64,000 nt of DNA from Nitrospirota bacterium (lineage in GTDB: Bacteria > Nitrospirota > UBA9217): positions 928,001 to 992,000 of the forward strand of contig CAVVUN010000015.1 of NCBI GenBank assembly GCA_963751455.1, in the 5' to 3' direction. The translations under genes were made by a program, and so were the position numbers. Below the pieces are notes generated by a model that saw only the letters and a list, made by a program, of their open reading frames with translations, was not told the DNA's origin and ran no database searches. Numbering within the stretch: position 1 is the stretch's first letter; every line of letters starts with the position of its first letter. Below, in pieces: positions 32,336-47,540 of this stretch.

Positions 32336-34249
32336 ATGATCCTAGACGGTAAAATACCTTCCGGTCCGCTTCCCGAAAAATGGGACAGGCAATGCCGTGA
32401 CATGAAGTTGGTGAACCCAGCGAACAAGCGGAAGTACACAATCATTGTCGTGGGCACCGGCCTTGCCGGTTCATCGGCAGCCGCTACCTTGGGCGAGCTC
32501 GGCTATAATGTGGAGGCCTTCTGCTTCCAGGACAGCCCGCGCCGCGCTCACAGCATCGCGGCCCAGGGAGGCATCAACGCCGCAAAGAACTACCCCAATG
32601 ACGGAGACAGCATCTTCAGACTGTTTCATGACACGATCAAGGGAGGGGATTTCCGGGCGCGCGAGGCGAATGTGTACCGGTTGGCATCGATCAGCAACAA
32701 TATCATCGATCAATGCGCGGCCCAGGGCGTTCCTTTTGCACGCGATTACGCGGGATATTTAGACAACCGTTCTTTCGGCGGGGCGCAGGTCTCCCGCACT
32801 TTTTATGCCATGGGACAGACGGGCCAGCAGCTGCTGCTCGGCGCTTACTCGGCGCTTTCACGCCAGGTGAAGGCGGGGACAGTCAAACTTCATCCCCGGA
32901 CCGAAATGCTCGATCTGGTGGTCGTGGATGGACACGCCAAAGGGATAATCATCCGCGATCTGGTGACCGGACAGATCCGCTCACATGCCGCAGACGCGGT
33001 CTGCCTCTGCAGCGGCGGTTATGCGAACGTGTTTCACCTTTCCACAAATGCCATGGGAAACAATGTTACTGCGACGTACCGGGCGTATAAAAAAGGAGCG
33101 CTTTTCGCGAATCCGTGCTATACGCAGATCCATCCGACATGTATCCCGGTCACCGGCGATCACCAGGCCAAGCTCACACTCATGTCCGAGTCGCTAAGGA
33201 ACGACGGCCGCGTCTGGGTCCCGAAGCTGAAGGGGGACAGCCGCGCTCCCCAAGATATTCCCGAGCAGGAAAGGGACTACTATCTGGAACGGAAGTACCC
33301 CGCCTTCGGCAACCTTGCACCCCGCGATATAGCGTCCCGAGCAGCGAAAGAGGTATGCGACGAAGGCCGCGGCGTGGGTGCAAGCGGCCGGGGTGTATAC
33401 CTCGATTTTGCCGGCGCCATCGAGCGCCTTGGAGCGGATACAATACAGGAGCGGTACGGCAACCTCTTTGACATGTACGAAAAGATAACGGACGAAAACG
33501 CTTATACGCGGCCGATGCGTATCTACCCTGCGCCGCATTACACCATGGGCGGGCTCTGGGTTGACTACAATCTCGAGAGTACGGTGCCGGGTCTCTTCGT
33601 TCTGGGCGAGGCGAATTTTTCGGACCACGGCGCAAACAGGCTCGGCGCAAGCGCGCTGATGCAGGGACTGGCAGACGGGTATTTCATAATTCCCTACACC
33701 ATAGCGAATTATCTTGGGCAAACAAAGCCGGGCGCAGTAAGCGCCTGCAACTCGGCATTCGCACAATCAGCGGCAGAGAGCGAGGCTTCGATCAAGAGGC
33801 TTCTGTCGATTAACGGAAAGAAGACGGTTAGCGAGTTCCACAGCGAGCTCGGGCATATCATGTGGGAGAACGTGGGCATGGCGCGCAGTAAAGAGAGCCT
33901 CACAAAGGCCCTCAATCTAATCCCCGTACTTCGGGCGGAATTCTGGGAGAACGTGCGGGTGTCCGGCGCTGAAGCAGGGTTGAATCAGCAGCTCGAAAAA
34001 GCGGGCCGCGTGGCGGACTTCCTTGAGTTCTCTGAACTCCTCGTTCGGGATGCTTTGCACCGGAACGAATCCTGCGGAGGCCATTTCCGGGTCGAATACC
34101 AGACACCGGACGGCGAGGCCAAACGCGACGACGAGAACTTCTGCTATGTGGCGGGATGGGAATATAAGGGCGTTGACCAGGAGCCGGAGCTGCACAAGGA
34201 ACCGCTGGTTTTTGAGAATGTGCACCTGGCGGTGAGAAGCTATAAATAG
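32336..34249 (+). CDS. sdhA: Succinate dehydrogenase/fumarate reductase flavoprotein subunit
   Basis: [15 protein letters not shown] flavinylation site, QIHPT, HYTMGG, HGANRLG. Confidence 0.96.
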
Positions 34250-34694
34250 AAATATTTTTTTGGACGCAGATAAACGCGGAAAAATCGGATTAAATTTAAA
34301 AATCTGCGTGGATCTGCGAAAATCTGCGTCCAGGAGATTTGAAGAGGTTGTTTATGAATCTGACTCTCTATGTCTGGCGGCAGACGGAGGCCATTTCCGG
34401 GTCGAGTACCAGACACCGGACGGCGAGGCCATGCGTGACGATGAGAACTTCTGCTATGTGGCGGGATGGGAATATAAGGGTGTTGACCAGGAGCCGGAAC
34501 TGCACAAGGAACCGCTGGTTTTTGAGAATGTGCACCTGGCGGTGAGAAGCTATAAATAGAAATATTTTTTTGGACGCAGATAAACGCGGAAAAATCGGAT
34601 TAAATTTAAAAATCTGCGTGGATCTGCGAAAATCTGCGTCCAGGAGATTTGAAGAGGTTGTTTATGAATCTGACCTTATACGTCTGGCGGCAGA
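34075..34694 (+). repeat. 310-bp tandem duplication of the sdhA 3' end, spacer and sdhB 5' end
   Basis: 34075-34384 versus 34385-34694; about 11 substitutions, nearly all synonymous. Confidence 0.95.
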
Positions 34695-38592: not shown

Positions 38593-38866
38593 TAACCACA
38601 GAATGTCCAGGCAGCCGTAAACGCGGTCAGATAAACACGGATGGACACAGATAAAGTCTAAATAAAAAAGTTTTTGCCACAGAGTTCACCGAGCACACAG
38701 AGAGGCTCCTTTCTCACACAAAGCCACTAAGCAACAGAGAAAAGAATTTTAAAAATATATTTTCTTCGTGGCTCCACGGCTTCGTGTGAAATCGACTTTT
38801 TCTTCTATGTCAAATTTTAATTTAAGCTTCTTCTCTCTCTGTGCCCTCTGTGTTCTCTGTGGCAAA
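38593..38866. repeat. Nested inverted-repeat hairpins of three 8/9-mer subtypes
   Basis: Outer AACCACAG...ACACGGATGGACACAGAT; middle TTTGCCACAGAG / CTCTGTGGCAAA; inner TTCTCACACAAAGCC / GGCTTCGTGTGAAA. Confidence 0.8.
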
Positions 38867-38942
38867 TATATTTTCATGTTATTCCGTGGTAAGGAATCTT
38901 TCATGCGGCCTTCATGGCCGCATTTATTTTAAGAAACAGGAA

Positions 38943-39128
38943 ATGAAGACAGGGTTCAAGCTGGGAGACTTCGAGTTGACCTGGCTGAACGGCGGACGGT
39001 TCGAGCTTGACGGCGGGGCGATGTTCGAGAATGCCGGTTCACTTTGCTACCACGATCCGTTCATGCTGGCCTGCAAATTCGACGGGAAGGGAAACATCCT
39101 TGAAAAACGGCCAGTAGAGCCAGCATGA
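38943..39128 (+). pseudogene. MBL-fold hydrolase (YtnP-like) with most of the gene deleted
   Basis: N-terminus GGRFELDGGAMF joined directly to the C-terminal YHDP motif; no HxHxDH core. Confidence 0.75.
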
Positions 39129-39406: not shown

Positions 39407-39709
39407 ATGCAGGTAAGCCAGGTAATGCAAAGGGACTTTATTACAGTCCAATCCACGGAATCTATCCAGGATGCCGCGAAAAAGATGCGGGAAAAACATC
39501 TCGGGACAGTACTCGTGCTTGAGGAGGACCATATTAAGGGAATATTGACCGAAAAGGAATTAATAGAAGCCATGGCCTCTATTTCCACGACACCAGGTAC
39601 ATTTCCGTCGGATGTGAACGTAATGAGCACGGAGCCGTCTGTTAACGATAATGCGAACAGATGCTGTTACTTCAGCGATTTGCAGGTTGAATTACTGATG
39701 GGCCGATAA
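39407..39709 (+). CDS. CBS-domain protein, second CBS repeat apparently truncated
   Basis: MQVSQVM...SIQDAAKKM...GILTEKEL; GAGGAGG RBS. Confidence 0.7.
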   Translation: MQVSQVMQRDFITVQSTESIQDAAKKMREKHLGTVLVLEEDHIKGILTEKELIEAMASISTTPGTFPSDVNVMSTEPSVNDNANRCCYFSDLQVELLMGR

Positions 39710-39743: not shown

Positions 39744-40487
39744 ATGGACATTGCAGGAAAAAATGTTGTGATCACCGGTGGCGCACGAGGGCTCGGACGC
39801 GAATACGCACTACAGTTGAGGGCGCTCGGCGCAAAGCCTTTTGTGTTGAATCTCCGTCAGGAGTCTCTCGAAGCATTTAAACGGGAGACGGATATTCCGG
39901 GAAAGGTGGTTGACGTAGGCAACGAAAAAGAGGTCGAAGCGTTTCTCGAAAACTATACGGAAGAATACGGGCCCCCTCATGTCCTGATCAATAATGCCGG
40001 GATCACCGCAGACGGGTTATTTATCAAGAAGAAAGGGGACGAGATCACGAAATTTTCCTATGCGAAGTGGGAAAAAGTCGTCAACGTAAATCTTACCGGT
40101 ACATTTCTTGTCTCACGGGAAGCGGCTTACCACATGGTGAAGCACGGCGTAAAAGGCTTGATTATCAATGTTTCGTCTGTAAACCGCTGCGGCAATATCG
40201 GACAGATAAATTATTCCGCATCCAAGGCTGCAGTCGATGCCATGACCGTTACAATGGCAAAAGAGCTTTGTCAATACGGAATAAGGGTGGCTGCCGTTGC
40301 GCCCGGTTATATAAATACCGAGATGTGCGCTACCATCAGGCAGAATGTGCTGGACAGGATAATCAGCGGTATACCCATGGGCCGTCTCGGTAAACGTGAT
40401 GAAATTTCGGATGCTGTCGAGTTTATTATAAGAAATGACTTTTTTACCGGTCGTGTCCTCGAGTGTGATGGAGGAATGAAAGTTTGA
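39744..40487 (+). CDS. SDR 3-oxoacyl/acetoacetyl-CoA reductase (PhaB/FabG-like), paralog 1
   Basis: TGGARGLG, NNAG, YSASK; PHA cluster context. Confidence 0.9.
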   Translation: MDIAGKNVVITGGARGLGREYALQLRALGAKPFVLNLRQESLEAFKRETDIPGKVVDVGNEKEVEAFLENYTEEYGPPHVLINNAGITADGLFIKKKGDEITKFSYAKWEKVVNVNLTGTFLVSREAAYHMVKHGVKGLIINVSSVNRCGNIGQINYSASKAAVDAMTVTMAKELCQYGIRVAAVAPGYINTEMCATIRQNVLDRIISGIPMGRLGKRDEISDAVEFIIRNDFFTGRVLECDGGMKV

Positions 40488-40686: not shown

Positions 40687-41133
40687 GTGCCTACCACGGA
40701 AGACATGACAAAACAGATGATGGACATCTTTGCCAATCCTCTTTTCAAAATGGGGTTTTTCGATTATTTTTTGAAAATGCAGCAGGAAGGCATTGAGGCG
40801 GCGCGGAAATTTTGGAGTTCGACTGAGCACAAAAACAGCCCTGTTCCGAATGCGGTCGAAATGTACGAAAAGATGGTCGACTTTTTCATCATCCTGGGGT
40901 TCGTCCCGCGAATAAAATACGAAGAAGCCTTGAAGGAAAACAAAAACCTGAAGGAAGAAAACAAGTTCCTCAGGGACGCCATGCGGGAGCTCCAAACCAA
41001 CCTTTCCAAGGAATGGGGAGAAAAAGGGCAACAGGTCTGGGATGCGAGCATTGACCAGCAGCTTGAGATGCATAAAGAGATCGCAAGGAATTTTTTTGAG
41101 ATGTTCAGGCAGCTGAAAATGGGCAGCCGATAG
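40687..41133 (+). CDS. Hypothetical coiled-coil protein, putative PHA granule-associated
   Basis: GAGGAGG RBS; helical; C-terminus (QVWDASIDQQLEMHKEIARNFFEMF) resembles the next three proteins. Confidence 0.75.
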   Translation: MPTTEDMTKQMMDIFANPLFKMGFFDYFLKMQQEGIEAARKFWSSTEHKNSPVPNAVEMYEKMVDFFIILGFVPRIKYEEALKENKNLKEENKFLRDAMRELQTNLSKEWGEKGQQVWDASIDQQLEMHKEIARNFFEMFRQLKMGSR

Positions 41134-41194
41134 AAGGATCTGTGTCGAGTCATCACCGGAATGAATCGGGATTACAAAGAAAAAGGGAGAGAGA

Positions 41195-41578
41195 ATGGAA
41201 AACGTATCCGGCTTTGTTGACGCATGGGTCAAAGCCCAGCAGAAGTCCATCCAGAGCTGGATGGAAGTGCAGAAGGAATTCATCGAGGGTTGGATGAAAG
41301 CACAGAAGACGTTGATGGAAAACTGGATCAAGGCAACACGAAAACTGGAGGAGTCGTTTCCTGCCGGGGGCACCTCCCAAGACAGCGGCAGACGTGATAC
41401 GCTCAATCTGTACGGGACCTGGATAAAGAGCATGGAGGATTCTTCGAAAGCTTTTGCAGACGAATCGGGGAGACTCCAGGAGACGTGGAGAAAGACAGTT
41501 GAAAAACAGATGGACATAAGCTCGGATATGGCGAAGAATTTTTTGGAAATATTCAAAAAAGCAGCTGAGAAGAAATAG
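41195..41578 (+). CDS. 11-residue-repeat amphipathic protein 1 (phasin candidate)
   Basis: DAWVKAQQKSI-QSWMEVQKEFI-EGWMKAQKTLM-ENWIKATRKLE. Confidence 0.85.
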   Translation: MENVSGFVDAWVKAQQKSIQSWMEVQKEFIEGWMKAQKTLMENWIKATRKLEESFPAGGTSQDSGRRDTLNLYGTWIKSMEDSSKAFADESGRLQETWRKTVEKQMDISSDMAKNFLEIFKKAAEKK

Positions 41579-41633
41579 GGGCTCTCCCGGGCGGGAGCAT
41601 CGACAATCACAACCGAGAAGGAGGAAAATTATC

Positions 41634-42029
41634 ATGGAAGAGGCCAGAGCAGAGGCAAAAAAAGGTTTTGAAGAGGCAAAAAAGGGTGTGGACAGGATCG
41701 CGCAGTTATTCGATTCCTGGATGAACACACAGAAGGATGTCATGGAGACCTGGGTGCGGTCGCAGAAGGAGTTCGTGGACACCTGGGTTGATGCAACGAA
41801 AAAACTGCAGGAGTCCTTTCTCAACACAGGCGGCGCCCAGGAAGGAACGATCAATGAGAACCTGAACGTGTACAGATCCTGGCTTACTACGATGTCGAAT
41901 TCTTCAAAAGTGTTCACTGATCAGGCAGGAAGAATTCAGGATACATGGAAGAACGCAGTCGAAAAACAGATGGACGTGAGCAGAGAGATGGTAAACCATT
42001 TCGCGGAGCTTTTCAAAAAGGCCGCCTGA
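41634..42029 (+). CDS. 11-residue-repeat amphipathic protein 2 (phasin candidate)
   Basis: DSWMNTQKDVM-ETWVRSQKEFV-DTWVDATKKLQ; AGGAGG RBS. Confidence 0.85.
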   Translation: MEEARAEAKKGFEEAKKGVDRIAQLFDSWMNTQKDVMETWVRSQKEFVDTWVDATKKLQESFLNTGGAQEGTINENLNVYRSWLTTMSNSSKVFTDQAGRIQDTWKNAVEKQMDVSREMVNHFAELFKKAA

Positions 42030-42127
42030 TGAAAGCAGCAAATAGCGGAGCAGGATGCAGCAGGGATTTAAAGTATTTCCTTGCTGCTTGATCCTTGCCC
42101 GCTGGTTGCTCGCACGCAGGAGGAGCG

Positions 42128-42466
42128 ATGGATAAGGTTCTGGAGTTCGTAGACGCATGGATGGGTTCGCAGAAAGAATTCATGGAGAGTTGGGTAAGTT
42201 CGCAGAAGCAATTCATGGATAACTGGACCATGGCTACCAAGATCATCCGTGATTCTTTGCTCCGCGCCGGGGGTCCACCGGAAGGCAAGACAAAAGAGAT
42301 AATGGAGCTGTACCAGTCCGCGCTTATGTCCCTGGTCGATTCGTCCAAAGTCTTGTCACATGAGGCGGAAAAAATTCAGGAGACCTGGAAAAACACGGTC
42401 GAGAAACAAATGGACATGAGCAGGGAGATGGTGAAGAACTTTTCGGAACTCATGAAGGCCTCCTAG
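42128..42466 (+). CDS. 11-residue-repeat amphipathic protein 3 (phasin candidate)
   Basis: DAWMGSQKEFM-ESWVSSQKQFM-DNWTMATKIIR; AGGAGG RBS. Confidence 0.85.
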   Translation: MDKVLEFVDAWMGSQKEFMESWVSSQKQFMDNWTMATKIIRDSLLRAGGPPEGKTKEIMELYQSALMSLVDSSKVLSHEAEKIQETWKNTVEKQMDMSREMVKNFSELMKAS

Positions 42467-42601: not shown

Positions 42602-43639
42602 ATGGATGACACAAAAAAGTATTTCGACAACTGGTTCAAATCTCAGGGCCGCATTCTTGAAGGCTTGGCCGAGATGACAAGGAAATACCAGGAGTCTTTC
42701 TGGGGCCTCGCGCAGAAGGGAGGACCCCCGAGTTTAACGGTTTTCCCAAATGTGTTTACCTCCTGGTCGAACACGGTTTTGAATGCAATGCGCCAGACAG
42801 GCAGTGGAGATCTATCCGACAGGCTTGGATCAAACGCGTACCTGAATCTTTATGAGATCTGGCTTACTCTCATAAAGGCAATCCAGGAAAAAACCATGGA
42901 TCCGAATGCTTATAAAGATCTGGCAGACTCGACAAAATACAAGGATGTTCTGGACCGGGTCTTCGGTTTTGATCCTGACTTCATCACCCAGGCCGCCGTT
43001 CAGGCCTCAAAGCTGCTGGAAGCATTCGGCGGTTCCACGCAGCACTTTATCAAACCGTGGATAGAGGCGTCCGAGAAAAACATGAAAACGCTTCCTCAGA
43101 TCGTAGAAGGCCGTCCCGAAGCGTATATGTCAGCATATCATAACCTGTTTAATGCGTTTGACGGCACGTTCGGGAAGTTTTTTCATGTTCCCCCAGTCGG
43201 GAAGGACAGGGAGAAAATTGAACTGATTCTAAGGACCCTCGATGACCTTTGTGTTTATCTTGCAAAGTCCATTGAATATCAGCATACGATGTACGTGACC
43301 GGAATGACGGCTCTGGAAAAAGTAATAACGACCATCACGGAAAAAGGCAACAAGGGGGAGGACATCAAGGGATTCGAAGAATTTATCGACGTGTGGGTCG
43401 ATATAAACGAGAAAACCTATTACGAGCTGTTTCAATCACGCGAGTTCTCCAGGATGCAGGGGGAATTGCTTGAGACAGGCCTCAAACTGCGGCAGCATAA
43501 TTTCAAGTTGATGGAGCTCTATTTGTACGATTATCCGATTGCGCTCCGTTCTGAAATGGACGATTTGTATAAAACCATTTACGAATTGAAGAAGAAGGTG
43601 AGAAGCCTCGAAAAACAATTCGGGGAGGTAGCCGCATGA
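42602..43639 (+). CDS. phaE: Class III PHA synthase subunit PhaE
   Basis: PPVGKDRE; C-terminal RSEMDDLYKTIYELKKKVR PhaE box; ATGA overlap with phaC. Confidence 0.9.
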   Translation: MDDTKKYFDNWFKSQGRILEGLAEMTRKYQESFWGLAQKGGPPSLTVFPNVFTSWSNTVLNAMRQTGSGDLSDRLGSNAYLNLYEIWLTLIKAIQEKTMDPNAYKDLADSTKYKDVLDRVFGFDPDFITQAAVQASKLLEAFGGSTQHFIKPWIEASEKNMKTLPQIVEGRPEAYMSAYHNLFNAFDGTFGKFFHVPPVGKDREKIELILRTLDDLCVYLAKSIEYQHTMYVTGMTALEKVITTITEKGNKGEDIKGFEEFIDVWVDINEKTYYELFQSREFSRMQGELLETGLKLRQHNFKLMELYLYDYPIALRSEMDDLYKTIYELKKKVRSLEKQFGEVAA

Positions 43640-44820
43640 AATCGCCACTTGACACAACACTCGTGAAAGATTTCGTGGAGCAGCTGGGAGACATGGGGGT
43701 GAAGCTCGCGAAGGGCTCGGAAACCGTCACGGAAATAGATGAAATTGACGTCGGGACAGCCCCCAAAGACATTATCTATGCCGAGGACAAGCTTCAGGTT
43801 TTCCATTACCGGCGGGAAGAGAAGGCAACCTGCACCATACCGGTCCTGATCGTGTATGCACTGGTGAACCGGGAGTACATGCTCGACCTTCAGCCTGACC
43901 GCAGCGTCGTCAGAAATCTTATCCAGCACGGGATTGATGTATATATGATCGATTGGGGCTATCCGACAAAAACGGACATGTACGTAAGCATGGACGATTA
44001 CATAAACGGATATCTGAATAACTGTGTCGACGTTGTCAGAAAAAATTCCGGTGCGGACAAGATCAATATCATGGGGATATGCCAGGGAGGCACCTTCAGC
44101 GGGATTTATTCGTCACTCTATCCCGAGAAGATCAAAAATCTCGTCACGATCGCAGCACCGTTCGATTTTTCAACCAATGACGCTCTTCTCTTCAACTGGT
44201 CAAAGGACATGCCTGCCGACGCCCTTGTCGATACCTACCGGGTCGTTCCAGGAGATTTTCTGAATCAGGGCTTCCTGATGCTGATGCCCTTTACGCTGAA
44301 CGTCAGAAAGTATGTCGATATGCTCGATCTGATAGAAGATAAGGAAAAATTCCTGAACTTCCTCCGGATGGAGAAATGGATCTTTGACAGCCCGGGCCAG
44401 GCAGGGGAGTGCCTGAGGCAGTTTATGAAGGATTTATATCAGGGGAACAAGCTCGTCAAAGGCGAATTGAAGCTGGGCGGTCAAACGGTAAACCTTAAAA
44501 ACATCACCATGCCGCTGTTGAACATCTATGCCACTGCAGACCACCTCGTCCCGCCCAACGCCACAAAGCCGTTGAATGATCTGGTGGGAAGCACCGATAA
44601 ATCACTCTATGAATTCAAAGGCGGCCATATCGGCATCTTTGTAGGGACGAAATCTCAAAAGGAGCTTGCTCCCGCGATAGCGCAGTGGCTTCAGCAGAGA
44701 TGCGGAAATGGGGCGGTAAAGCCTGAGGGGGCGACAAAGCCTGAGAAAGCGGAAACCCCGCCTTCTGCAGGGACCAGAGCCAAGGAGCCCGGACGCCGGA
44801 AACGCCCCGGGAATGAATGA
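43636..44820 (+). CDS. phaC: Class III PHA synthase subunit PhaC
   Basis: PVLIVYALVNR, lipase box GICQGG, RMEKWIFDSP, DHLVP, GGHIG. Confidence 0.96.
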   Translation: MKSPLDTTLVKDFVEQLGDMGVKLAKGSETVTEIDEIDVGTAPKDIIYAEDKLQVFHYRREEKATCTIPVLIVYALVNREYMLDLQPDRSVVRNLIQHGIDVYMIDWGYPTKTDMYVSMDDYINGYLNNCVDVVRKNSGADKINIMGICQGGTFSGIYSSLYPEKIKNLVTIAAPFDFSTNDALLFNWSKDMPADALVDTYRVVPGDFLNQGFLMLMPFTLNVRKYVDMLDLIEDKEKFLNFLRMEKWIFDSPGQAGECLRQFMKDLYQGNKLVKGELKLGGQTVNLKNITMPLLNIYATADHLVPPNATKPLNDLVGSTDKSLYEFKGGHIGIFVGTKSQKELAPAIAQWLQQRCGNGAVKPEGATKPEKAETPPSAGTRAKEPGRRKRPGNE

Positions 44821-44848: not shown

Positions 44849-45592
44849 ATGGAATTGACGGGCAAAAAAATCATTGTAACGGGCGGCGCGCGCGGTATGG
44901 GAAAGAGGTTCGCCGTGGATTTAAAGGCCCAGGGCGCCAAACCAACCGTTGTGGATGTGGCTCAGGATACACTTGACGCGCTGAAGAATGAAACCGGCAT
45001 CCCAGGACAGGTTGTCGATGTAAGCAATGAAAAGAGCGTCGAGTCCTTTTTTGAGCAATATACCCGGGAGAACGGCGCTCCGGATGCGTTGATCAACAAT
45101 GCCGGAATCACGGCTGATTCTCTCTTTATCAAGAAAAAAGGGGACGAGGTTACGAAGTTTCCCTTCCCGAACTGGGAAAGGGTGCTCAATGTCAACCTGA
45201 CGGGGGTCTTCCTGTGCGCGCGGGAGGCCGCGTTTCATATGGTGAAGAACAGCGTCAAAGGCGTGATCGTGAATATTTCATCGATCAGCCGGGCAGGGAA
45301 CCTGGGCCAGACAAACTATTCAGCTGCAAAATCCGCAGTTGACTCGATGACCGTAACCTGGGCGAAAGAACTGGCGAGATACGGCATCCGTGTGGGCGCG
45401 ATCGCTCCAGGCTATATCAACACCGAGATGGTTGCCAAGATCAGACCCGAAGTCCTCGAGAAACTCATCCAGAACATTCCGGCAGGGCGGCTCGGCGATA
45501 TGGGCGAAATATCTCTTGCCGTTCAGTTCATCATAAAAAATGACTTCTTTACCGGCAGAATTCTGGAAGTGGACGGCGGCATGAGGATCTGA
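44849..45592 (+). CDS. SDR 3-oxoacyl/acetoacetyl-CoA reductase (PhaB/FabG-like), paralog 2
   Basis: TGGARGMG, NNAG, YSAAK; lies between phaC and the thiolase. Confidence 0.9.
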   Translation: MELTGKKIIVTGGARGMGKRFAVDLKAQGAKPTVVDVAQDTLDALKNETGIPGQVVDVSNEKSVESFFEQYTRENGAPDALINNAGITADSLFIKKKGDEVTKFPFPNWERVLNVNLTGVFLCAREAAFHMVKNSVKGVIVNISSISRAGNLGQTNYSAAKSAVDSMTVTWAKELARYGIRVGAIAPGYINTEMVAKIRPEVLEKLIQNIPAGRLGDMGEISLAVQFIIKNDFFTGRILEVDGGMRI

Positions 45593-45735: not shown

Positions 45736-46917
45736 ATGGAAGCGTATATCGTAGGAGGGACCAGGACAGCCATCGGAAGATACGGCGGCGCCCTCGCCTC
45801 CCTGGATGCCATAGATATAGGGTCGGCGGTGATCAAAGAGGTTTTGAAAAGAACCGGGATCCCGAGAGAAGCAGTTCAGGAAGTGATCATGGGGCAGGTA
45901 CTCCAGGCCGGGCTCGGGCAAAACCCGGCCCGCCAGGCAGCTATGCGCGCCGGACTGCCTGAAAACGTGCCGGCCTTCACCGTAAACAAGGTATGCGGCT
46001 CCGGATTGAAGTCTGTTGTGCTCGCGGGTTTAACCATTTCGGCGGGAGAAGAGAACGCTATTATTGCGGGCGGCATGGAGCATATGACAAGCGCGCCTTA
46101 TGTGGTAAAGTCCGCACGGTGGGGGCAGCGTCTGGGAAACGCAGAGATGACGGATACGCTCGTAAACGACGCGCTTTGGGATACTTTCTATGAGTGCCAT
46201 ATGGGAATTACAGCCGAGAACATTGCGACCAAGTACGGCATAAACAGAATCGATCAGGATCAGTTTGCAATGGACTCGCAAAGGAAGACAGAGCAGGCAA
46301 TCAAGGAAGGCAAGTTCAAGGATGAGATTGTTCCCCTGAAAGTCAAACCGGAAAAAGGTCCGGACAAGATTTTTGATACGGACGAGCATCCCCGCTTCGG
46401 TACCACGTGCGAGGCCCTTGGCAAATTGAAGCCGGCGTTCAGGACGGAGGGGACGGTCACCGCGGGCAACGCCTCGGGCATCAACGACGGAGCTGCGGCT
46501 GTGCTGGTTGTTTCCCGGGATAAAATGAAGGAAATGAGCCCTCCCTGGGCTTTTAAATTACGCGCTTGGTCCACAGCCGCAATAGATCCTGCGTTTATGG
46601 GTCTAGGACCCATTGACGCCTGCAAACAGGTCCTTGAACGCGGAAAGCTTGCTGTGAAAGATCTTGATCTGGTCGAGGTCAACGAAGCGTTTGCCGCACA
46701 GTCGATCCAGGTGCACCGGGCGTTGAAATGGGACATGGAAAAGGTGAATGTTCTGGGCGGGGCTATTGCGCTCGGACACCCGGTGGGAGCGAGCGGAACG
46801 AGGATCCTTGTAACCCTTCTTTATGAAATGGTACGGCGCAATGTAAATCTGGGCCTGGCCTCGCTTTGCATCGGCGGCGGGCAGGGCATTGCCGTGATCG
46901 TGGAGCGGGTCAGGTAA
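45736..46917 (+). CDS. Acetyl-CoA C-acetyltransferase (thiolase, PhaA-like)
   Basis: NKVCGSG, NEAFA, GHPVGASG, CIGGGQG. Confidence 0.95.
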   Translation: MEAYIVGGTRTAIGRYGGALASLDAIDIGSAVIKEVLKRTGIPREAVQEVIMGQVLQAGLGQNPARQAAMRAGLPENVPAFTVNKVCGSGLKSVVLAGLTISAGEENAIIAGGMEHMTSAPYVVKSARWGQRLGNAEMTDTLVNDALWDTFYECHMGITAENIATKYGINRIDQDQFAMDSQRKTEQAIKEGKFKDEIVPLKVKPEKGPDKIFDTDEHPRFGTTCEALGKLKPAFRTEGTVTAGNASGINDGAAAVLVVSRDKMKEMSPPWAFKLRAWSTAAIDPAFMGLGPIDACKQVLERGKLAVKDLDLVEVNEAFAAQSIQVHRALKWDMEKVNVLGGAIALGHPVGASGTRILVTLLYEMVRRNVNLGLASLCIGGGQGIAVIVERVR

Positions 46918-46988: not shown

Positions 46989-47540
46989 CTAGTCCGTATC
47001 GCAGGGTGGTATGCGTTCTTTAAGTTTTGAAAGGCGTGCCGCTGTAAGTTCGGATTTCAGCACGAAGTCGGTTTTGGCGTAAGCATCTTTTTTCTTCATG
47101 AGCAGCCATTCCTTCCCGGTGCCTTTCGGCAGGCCCTTCATCTGGGCAAGCGCGAATGCTCCTTTCAGTTTTTCCCCCTTGAGCTCGAAAACGAGCTTCC
47201 CTGCTGCAAGCCCCAATACCGGGTCCTGCCCCTCGAGGGGGAGGTACTCTCCGCTATCCCAGATTACGACCGGGCCTGCGCCGTACGATCCTTCGGGGAT
47301 GACGCCTTCGAAGTCTCTATATTCCACTGGATGGTCGGGCACCATGACAGCAAGCCGCTTGTCAGCCGGGTTCAGGGATGGGCCCTTCGGTACGGCCCAT
47401 GATTTAAGAACCCCTTCCATTTCCAGCCGGAAATCATAATGAAGTCTCGAGGCCTTGTGCTCATGTACAACAAAACGCAAATTTCTGGAATTCACTGTTA
47501 TTTTGTCCTTCCTGAAAATTCTTGACAAAGGTTTTGGCAA
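46989..47540 (-). CDS. Stand-alone LigD 3'-phosphoesterase domain protein
   Basis: [35 protein letters not shown]; no ligase or polymerase domain attached. Confidence 0.9.

What the first reader, a model, noticed from the sequence alone, without database searches (positions are those of the whole stretch)
40687..42466. Tandem family of 11-mer-repeat amphipathic proteins upstream of phaEC: candidate new phasin class
Seen: three paralogs carry 3-4 repeats of an 11-residue unit, roughly (D/E)xWxxxQKxF(M/V/I), and share the C-terminus QETWKxxVEKQMDxSxxMxxxFxExxKxA. A fourth gene shares that C-terminus. All have strong RBSs, and no recognisable phaP or phaR is present. Established: 11-mer amphipathic helices are the lipid-surface-binding device of perilipins, apolipoproteins and synucleins. 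Inference: these are granule-coat proteins that converged on the lipid-droplet strategy.
Basis: partly seen in the sequence, partly recalled or inferred. Interest (0 to 1): 0.7.

Follow-up and report, generated by a model that had tools for sequence, protein, structure and literature searches.

The report
Chimeric phasin-like proteins derived from PhaE
Three small genes in a bioplastic (PHA) synthesis operon encode mosaics of the start of the synthase subunit PhaE and the end of the upstream gene, likely born by duplication of that gene junction, and their products likely coat the polymer granules in place of the standard phasins, which this genome lacks.

Summary
Three paralogs (B, C, D; 112-131 aa) have Trp every 11 residues and lie between an unnamed gene A and phaE-phaC (class III) in a Nitrospirota-type genome. 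They are under purifying selection. Relatives sit directly before phaE in 22 of 22 GTDB loci and 28 of 43 metagenome loci (Methylotenera-like). Searches for known phasin families and PhaR found nothing in the genome.

Residues 1-72 match the PhaE N-terminus (profile probability 99.1%); residues 73-112 match A's C-terminus (98.0%). A and PhaE do not match each other (0.3%). One tandem duplication of the A-3'/phaE-5' junction would give both this mosaic and this gene order; trees cannot fix the direction.

The 11-mer is therefore an expanded PhaE unit, not shown convergence on perilipins: the repeats are rich in aromatic residues, and PHA granules are reported to lack phospholipid. Phasin_2 is the top Pfam hit (53 of 83 members) but stays below its cut-off. 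The predicted helical hairpin superposes on a solved phasin, non-specifically.

Verdict: likely a new, lineage-restricted phasin family with an unusual origin. Granule binding is untested.

The parts
39744..40487 (+). SDR reductase, PhaB/FabG-like, copy 1; 65% identical to copy 2. It sits where about half of the related GTDB loci have the putative regulator R.
40687..41133 (+). Gene A: 148-aa unnamed helical protein with a central short coiled-coil stretch; phasin-like by language-model features only; likely donor of the C-terminal module of B/C/D
40999..41121 (+). C-terminal module of A (about residues 105-145), homologous to residues 73-112 of D
41195..41578 (+). Paralog B, 127 aa; four 11-mer units (41204-41335)
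41634..42029 (+). Paralog C, 131 aa; three 11-mer units (41697-41795) after a short charged N-terminal extension
42128..42466 (+). Paralog D, 112 aa; three 11-mer units (42137-42235); predicted helical hairpin, helices 2-47 and 54-111
42602..43639 (+). phaE, class III synthase subunit, 345 aa
   Evidence: PF09712 E 9.5e-32
42602..42793 (+). N-terminal module of PhaE (residues 1-64), homologous to residues 1-72 of B/C/D-type proteins, with one 11-mer fewer
43636..44820 (+). phaC, class III PHA synthase, 394 aa; motifs GICQGG (147-152), ADHLV (301-305) and GGHIG (329-333) present (their reading as the Cys-Asp-His triad is recalled)
   Evidence: TIGR01836 over cut-off
44849..45592 (+). SDR reductase, PhaB/FabG-like, copy 2
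45736..46917 (+). Thiolase, PhaA-like

Best explanation
B, C and D are mosaic proteins, PhaE-like in residues 1-72 and A-like in residues 73-112, that likely arose by tandem duplication of the A-3'/phaE-5' junction and likely serve as the structural coat (phasins) of PHA granules made by the adjacent PhaEC synthase. Shown: mosaic homology, position, purifying selection, amphipathic pattern, repeated copy-number gain, and no Phasin_2-family gene in the genomes searched. Predicted: each monomer is a two-helix hairpin. Inferred: in the cytoplasm monomers pack through their apolar faces, as the solved PhaP tetramer does. On a growing granule the F/W/M/V stripe would lie on the polyester, with the invariant central Gln possibly hydrogen-bonding ester carbonyls and the charged face pointing outward, which limits coalescence and sets granule size. 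Adding 11-mer units (33-nt slips) lengthens the stripe in register, and adding gene copies raises dosage. Gene A is probably a second coat or scaffold protein; the shared C-terminal helix would let the two families co-assemble.
For: Linkage: directly before phaE in 22 of 22 unique GTDB loci, with A directly before it in 20 of 22. Of 15 sampled genomes with the gene, 13 also have class III phaC; the other two are 65% and 75% complete. Only these 2 of the 373 genomes without a phaC hit have it (401 searched). Same order in 28 of 43 Methylotenera-like metagenome loci. Vacancy: Phasin_2 found in 0 of 22 cassette genomes and not in the own genome, with controls ringing. Character: Phasin_2 is the most frequent Pfam hit (53 of 83 members at E<=0.01; next family 14). 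The four nearest named Atlas clusters are all PHA-related: PhaE 0.89, PHB_acc 0.87, PhaP_Bmeg 0.86, Phasin_2 0.83 (leads only). Peak 18-residue moment is 0.62-0.67. The model aligns with phasin 5ip0_A at Z 10.0, rmsd 2.4, 97 residues. Two divergent copies carry Lys/Ala/Pro-rich tails like PhaF (PhaF tail per PMC5658603). dN/dS is 0.05-0.34 in 11 of 11 pairs. Mosaic: profile-profile match to PhaE P 99.1%, to A P 98.0%, A to PhaE P 0.3%. The profile of residues 1-72 scores on average 46 bits on PhaE 1-100 against 4 on A; that of 73-112 scores 46 bits on A's end against -1 to -2 on any part of PhaE; reversed controls 3-10 bits. Bacteroidota PhaEs (e.g. Microscilla marina) carry the same N-terminal module, so it is not confined to this cassette's lineages.
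Against: No experiment; granule binding, expression and oligomer state are unknown. Seven of 43 metagenome loci hold a copy with no phaE next to it although sequence continues; 8 more end too early to tell. Eight loci (Magnetobacterium and kin) have A-phaE-phaC with no such gene, so it is dispensable there. The direction of origin is not shown: the free PhaC tree nests the loci without the gene inside those with it, which suggests loss, while a tree holding the gene-bearing loci together is 2.96 log-likelihood units better and not rejected (p-AU 0.57). The fold match is a common arrangement: rank 6, tied with unrelated coiled coils, 3% identity, and Foldseek finds nothing at E<=0.001. Atlas recognition values were below the tool's threshold. 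hhalign also runs a weak alignment through A's N-terminal part, although windows there score no better than reversed controls.
Confidence: 0.65

Rival explanations
1. They are accessory subunits or modulators of the synthase rather than bulk coat. The PhaE-like half would co-assemble with PhaE or PhaC and tune activity, initiation or granule number, and the A-like half would tie the synthase to protein A.
For: The first 72 residues are a PhaE module. The gene is directly before phaE in 22 of 22 GTDB loci. The module is poorly ordered in the PhaE monomer model (pLDDT under 50 for residues 1-145), as expected of a part that needs a partner.
Against: Independent expansion to 2-3 tandem copies in at least three lineages and extension of the repeat fit a dosage-driven surface protein better than a stoichiometric subunit. 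No other Phasin_2-type candidate exists in these genomes. Stand-alone copies away from phaE exist.
Confidence: 0.2
2. They are ordinary but divergent members of the Phasin_2 (PhaP) family. The likeness to PhaE and A then reflects a shared ancient amphipathic module, or B/C/D is the donor of both modules, rather than a junction chimera.
For: Sub-threshold Phasin_2 hits in 53 of 83 members, best E 1.2e-4. Size and predicted fold match phasin 5ip0. Some databases label long Bacteroidota PhaEs 'regulator phasin'. Four of 120 homologues carry precomputed Pfam PF28174, which is not in the held library and could not be identified.
Against: None of the members whose scores were listed reached the 24.9-bit cut-off. 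Only 2 of 83 hit TIGR01841 at E<=0.01. A search of 1.84 billion representatives returned PhaE N-termini and A C-termini; no hit was identified as a PhaP, though most of the 109 were not scanned against Pfam. One PhaE N-terminus also hits Phasin_2 weakly, so the signal may be pattern-level. The sharp switch at about residue 72 needs two separate fusions under this view.
Confidence: 0.12
3. They bind a phospholipid surface (membrane or lipid monolayer) through 3-11 helices that converged on perilipins and apolipoproteins.
For: Exact 11-residue periodicity. In B the moment is slightly higher at 98.2 than at 100 degrees (0.58 against 0.53). Weak ApoLp-III hits in 4 of 83 members.
Against: The unit is PhaE-derived; the family moment peaks at 99.5-100 degrees; the face is aromatic-rich, unlike Plin4 (PMC5889406); PHA granules lacked phospholipid in vivo (PMC4879537).
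Confidence: 0.03

Closest known systems
PhaP phasins, Pfam Phasin_2 PF09361; solved chain 5ip0_A (its identity as the Aeromonas PhaP of Zhao 2016 is recalled)
   Same: Small (107 against 112-131 aa), all-helical, amphipathic; whole-chain superposition Z 10.0, rmsd 2.4 over 97 residues; top Pfam family below cut-off.
   Different: 3% identity to 5ip0; no member seen over the Pfam cut-off; exact Trp/Gln 11-mer repeat; mosaic of PhaE and gene A; no PhaR in the genome.
PhaE, class III synthase subunit (PF09712, TIGR01834)
   Same: Residues 1-72 are homologous to its N-terminal helix-loop-helix (P 99.1%; 31% mean identity against 37% among the PhaEs themselves).
   Different: Lacks the remaining ~280 residues including the conserved C-terminal region; has 1-2 extra 11-mers; ends in an A-type helix.
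Haloarchaeal PhaP (Haloferax mediterranei, phaR-phaP-phaE-phaC)
   Same: Lineage-restricted phasin upstream of phaEC with no similarity to bacterial phasins, preceded by a small regulator (PMC9049629, passages); relatives here have R-A-BCD-phaE-phaC.
   Different: No sequence comparison was made (sequence not fetched); its regulator is AbrB-like, whereas R here has no family match.
PhaF/PhaI of Pseudomonas (PF05597)
   Same: Amphipathic helix plus short leucine zipper (A has a short coiled-coil stretch); Lys/Ala/Pro-rich tail on two divergent copies.
   Different: No PF05597 or TIGR01837 match in the genome; window copies have no such tail.
Perilipin / apolipoprotein / synuclein 11-mer helices
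   Same: 11-residue repeat in an amphipathic helix.
   Different: Only 3-4 units, rich in Trp/Phe/Met with a central Gln; no homology; surface is polyester, not a lipid monolayer.

Membership tests
Phasins (functional class) | Small non-catalytic protein with amphipathic helices | tested here: met
   112-131 aa; no enzyme family over a cut-off; peak moment 0.62-0.67; two long predicted helices
Phasins (functional class) | Genetic linkage to or co-occurrence with a PHA synthase | tested here: met
   22 of 22 GTDB loci; 13 of 15 genomes; 28 of 43 metagenome loci
Phasins (functional class) | Abundant on the granule surface in vivo; controls granule size and number | not testable with these tools
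   Needs localisation, proteomics or deletion
Phasins (functional class) | Oligomerises through helices | not tested
Phasin_2 / PhaP (PF09361, TIGR01841) | Score over the curated cut-off | tested here: not met
   B 20.5, C 19.4, D 15.3 bits against 24.9; best family E 1.2e-4; 2 of 83 hit TIGR01841 weakly
Phasin_2 / PhaP (PF09361, TIGR01841) | PhaP helical-hairpin fold | tested here: inconclusive
   5ip0_A Z 10.0, tied with unrelated coiled coils; Foldseek nothing at E<=0.001
PhaF/PhaI (PF05597, TIGR01837) and PF09650 | Profile match | tested here: not met
   No hit on the proteins or in the genome; controls rang
PhaP_Bmeg (PF09602) | Profile match over 28.3 bits | tested here: not met
   No hit for A-D; one relative scored 22 bits; the genome search had no ringing control
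PhaE (PF09712) | Homologous N-terminal module | tested here: met
PhaE (PF09712) | Conserved central and C-terminal region; family score over cut-off | tested here: not met
   Residues 73-112 score -2 bits on PhaE 101-end; 2 of 83 members hit PF09712 weakly
Perilipin/apolipoprotein-type 11-mer helices | 11-residue sequence repeat | tested here: met
Perilipin/apolipoprotein-type 11-mer helices | 3-11 geometry preferred over 3.6 | tested here: inconclusive
   Family peak 99.5-100 degrees; B and C slightly favour 98.2, D does not
Perilipin-type 11-mer helices | Lack of large hydrophobic residues | tested here: not met
   W+F+Y+M make up 15-18% of B/C/D; Plin4 lacks large hydrophobics (PMC5889406)
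Haloarchaeal PhaP | Sequence homology | not tested
   Sequence not fetched; PMC3298179 not held

The most novel reading that the evidence does not exclude
A whole phasin family was created in one step by duplicating the junction between gene A and phaE, fusing PhaE's N-terminal helix to A's C-terminal helix. PhaE's N-terminus is itself a built-in granule anchor that has been spun off as a stand-alone coat protein more than once, since other Nitrospirota phaEC clusters have their own Trp-rich small gene before phaE. The R-A-BCD-phaEC cassette, with an unclassified regulator in place of PhaR, is a self-contained PHA granule system that moved between Nitrospirota and Methylophilaceae.
Probability: 0.4. 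Interest if true: 0.72.

Novelty: new variant of a known kind. Interest (0 to 1): 0.52.

Why it matters
Phasins are a mixed group whose origins are unclear, and the job of PhaE is poorly defined (recalled). A coat protein built from PhaE's first 70 residues points to that segment as the part of class III synthases that grips the granule, which can be tested by deleting or swapping it. It is also a clear candidate for gene birth by junction duplication, with the predicted order (A, chimera, phaE) intact in about 50 loci from two phyla. The family fills the missing-phasin slot in Nitrospirota and Methylotenera-like PHA clusters. A modular 11-mer with an invariant Gln in the middle of the apolar face would be a simple, tunable PHB-binding tag. 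If the proteins prove to be plain coat proteins, the result is one more lineage-specific phasin, as in haloarchaea.

Tried and rejected
PDB sequence search with the family profile gave only coiled-coil matches (viral fusion helices, designed bundles), treated as pattern noise. Foldseek on the model gave nothing at E<=0.001. Rfam found only 5 tRNAs in the window, none in the locus. The promoter/terminator scan was at chance level (10 against 6.9 and 13 against 9.5 expected). No plasmid match. No RNA holder was listed; no evidence either way. Complex prediction of a homotetramer was not available. PF28174, on 4 of 120 homologues, could not be identified. The idea that the proteins are internally deleted PhaE was rejected: the C-terminal part does not match any part of PhaE. 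The idea that A and B/C/D are full-length paralogues is not supported: N-terminal windows score on A no better than on reversed A. Using loci without the gene as proof of an ancestral state failed. A hint that those loci arose by recombination with the lost gene is weak: their A C-termini are 45% identical to other As and 43% to B/C/D-type ends. A first identity table had mis-anchored rows and was redone; there the Methylotenera-type PhaE N-termini dropped out (0 rows passed the gap filter). The PhaE model was poor (mean pLDDT 56.8) and was not used for fold search. Ten literature searches listed no paper describing this family; these cover open-access full text only, titles and abstract starts were read, and supplements were not searched, where gene tables could name it. 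The scan's own index had no look-alike.

Full report
Locus. The window carries, on the + strand: SDR reductase (39744-40487), gene A (40687-41133), paralogs B (41195-41578), C (41634-42029) and D (42128-42466), phaE (42602-43639), phaC (43636-44820), a second SDR (44849-45592) and a thiolase (45736-46917). PhaE matches PF09712 (E 9.5e-32) and PhaC passes the class III cut-off of TIGR01836. Named homologues are Nitrospirota, so the host is inferred to be one. The genome is 5.7 Mb and 100% complete and has no further copies of A-D.

The repeats are real. Trp recurs every 11 residues, three or four times. dN/dS was 0.05-0.34 in all 11 pairs tested, some with dS near saturation. These are maintained proteins.

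Family and context. A three-sequence profile found 162 relatives among 610 candidates; those of the 120 listed that carry a name are called hypothetical. An 83-sequence profile found 109 representatives among 1.84 billion proteins. In GTDB contigs it found 21 loci: 17 with a true B/C/D-type gene and 4 matching only through A and PhaE. Twenty more regions were fetched. After removing six duplicates, 22 of 22 loci have the gene directly before phaE and 20 of 22 have A directly before it; 8 loci have A-phaE with no such gene. Of 401 genomes of the phylum, 15 have the gene, 10 have only A and PhaE, and 28 have a class III-like phaC. Thirteen of the 15 have phaC; the two without are 65% and 75% complete. 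A divergent subgroup gave 43 metagenome loci. In 28 the gene is directly before phaE, 8 end too early to tell, and 7 are stand-alone. Cluster mates of proteins from these loci are labelled Methylotenera or Methylophilaceae. G000's three copies group with the three copies of one relative (97/83), while other two- and three-copy arrays arose separately.

No known phasin is present. Searches of G000 for PF09361, PF05597, PF09650, TIGR01841, TIGR01837 and PF07879 were empty while controls rang; PF09602 had no ringing control. PF09361 was also absent from 22 of 22 other cassette genomes and from 5 of 5 genomes with other phaEC types. B, C and D score 20.5, 19.4 and 15.3 bits on Phasin_2 against a cut-off of 24.9. 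It is nonetheless the commonest Pfam hit: 53 of 83 members at E<=0.01, next family 14. The Atlas's nearest clusters were unnamed Nitrososphaerota proteins (0.92-0.93) and then four PHA-related families (0.83-0.89); recognition was below threshold, so these are leads. For A the second hit was an automatically named phasin cluster (0.87).

Mosaic structure. C matched the start of its own PhaE (32% identity, E 0.008). Profile-profile comparison gave probability 99.1% to PhaE over PhaE residues 1-66, 98.0% to A with the strong part at the C-terminus, and 0.3% between A and PhaE. Sliding profiles switch cleanly near residue 72. Residues 1-72 score a mean 46 bits on PhaE 1-100 (range 29-60, 20 PhaEs), 9 on the rest of PhaE and 4 on A. 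Residues 73-112 score 46 bits on A's end (range 32-66, 15 As) and -1 to -2 on PhaE. Reversed controls gave -2 to 10. Within Nitrospirota, N-module identity to PhaE is 31% (37% among PhaEs) and C-module identity to A is 37% (57% among As) (rows were aligned to a B/C/D profile, which favours identity). PhaE has one unit of the 11-mer; the family usually has an extra one, B two extra, and a few relatives none. Bacteroidota PhaEs, including Microscilla marina, begin with the same module, often doubled.

Origin (inferred). Duplicating the segment from A's 3' end to phaE's 5' end turns A-phaE into A, [PhaE-N::A-C], phaE in one step, which matches both the mosaic and the order. The alternative needs two independent fusions on either side. 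Trees do not decide: the free PhaC tree (44 rows) nests the six loci without the gene inside those with it, next to one gene-bearing locus at 99/94. A constrained tree with the gene-bearing loci together was 2.96 log-likelihood units better and not rejected, p-AU 0.57. I put the junction-duplication origin at about 0.6.

Shape and surface. AlphaFold2 gives D two helices (2-47, 54-111), mean pLDDT 80.7, pTM 0.54. Foldseek found nothing significant. A wide structural search ranked phasin 5ip0_A sixth of 48,161 (Z 10.0, rmsd 2.4, 97 residues, 3% identity), tied with unrelated coiled coils, so this is compatible but not diagnostic. On an 11-position wheel the apolar face is Phe, Trp, Gln, Met, Val with the Gln at its centre and charged residues opposite. 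The only invariant columns in 83 sequences are four Gln: 15, 26, 84, 94. The family moment peaks at 99.5-100 degrees, so 3-11 geometry is neither shown nor excluded.

Comparison with what is known. A review describes phasins as heterogeneous, predicted amphipathic in all four Pfam families, and often oligomeric; the solved PhaP tetramer packs through hydrophobic faces and is thought to open on PHB (PMC5658603; first part and passages). Haloarchaeal PhaP lies upstream of phaEC and shares no similarity with bacterial phasins (PMC9049629; passages). Granules had no phospholipid in vivo in three proteobacteria (PMC4879537; abstract). Perilipin 11-mers lack large hydrophobic residues (PMC5889406; passages). 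So these proteins likely work like phasins, are not members of any curated phasin family by score, and resemble perilipins only in repeat length. One preprint on magnetotactic bacteria mentions no phasins (passages).

Verdict. Real feature; likely a new lineage-restricted phasin family (function about 0.65-0.75) with a demonstrable PhaE/A mosaic structure. New variant of a known kind; interest 0.52. All functional steps are inferred.

Noticed in passing
L062:4181-4513, L099:4162-4524, L025:5004-5432 and others: A highly conserved ~110-120 aa gene R precedes the cassette in 32 of 43 metagenome loci and occurs in 11 of 22 GTDB loci, 61-68% identical across the two phyla. Its N-terminus looks like a ribbon-helix-helix by eye (recalled pattern); no Pfam or PDB match. 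Likely a PhaR analogue. Not found in G000.
   Followed up: partly
L018:8885-9607 (-), L029:3935-4648 (-), L020:6215-6688 (-): Second copies of A; two carry a C-terminal PilZ-like domain just under the cut-off (20.9 and 19.4 against 22.5 bits), hinting at c-di-GMP control of a granule protein.
   Followed up: partly
L091:1891-2553, L092:1129-1686: Stand-alone B/C/D-type genes with long Lys/Ala/Pro-rich tails like PhaF's DNA-binding tail.
   Followed up: partly
L057-L099: Methylotenera-like betaproteobacterial contigs carry a class III phaEC cassette whose PhaC falls among Nitrospirota sequences, suggesting transfer between phyla; direction not tested.
   Followed up: partly
L037:5953-6510 (-), L038:5366-5974, L037:8893-9501 (-), L040:5084-5590 (-): Other Nitrospirota phaEC clusters have their own unnamed small genes, one type Trp-rich and directly before phaE, with at most weak Phasin_2 or family hits; possible further phasin families.
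   Followed up: partly
window 34075-34694: 310-bp tandem duplication (96.5% identical) spanning the 3' end of the sdhA-type gene and the start of the next gene, creating a small ORF with the flavoprotein's C-terminus (34260-34559). A recent junction duplication of the kind proposed for B/C/D, or an assembly artefact.
   Followed up: partly
G000:C1:644737-645747 (L100): A second, distant PhaC-like alpha/beta hydrolase (25% identity; 141.6 bits, under the TIGR01836 cut-off) next to two other hydrolases, with no phaE.
   Followed up: partly
window 46989-47540 (-): Stand-alone LigD 3'-phosphoesterase domain gene right after the thiolase.
   Followed up: no
window 38841-39128 and 39407-39709: Two short ORFs upstream of the locus: one with no family hit and one with a single CBS domain; possibly gene fragments.
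   Followed up: no
P0195, P0198, P0205, P0208, P0226: Long (443-482 aa) Bacteroidota-type PhaEs with a doubled N-terminal module; several are labelled 'regulator phasin' by a source.
   Followed up: partly
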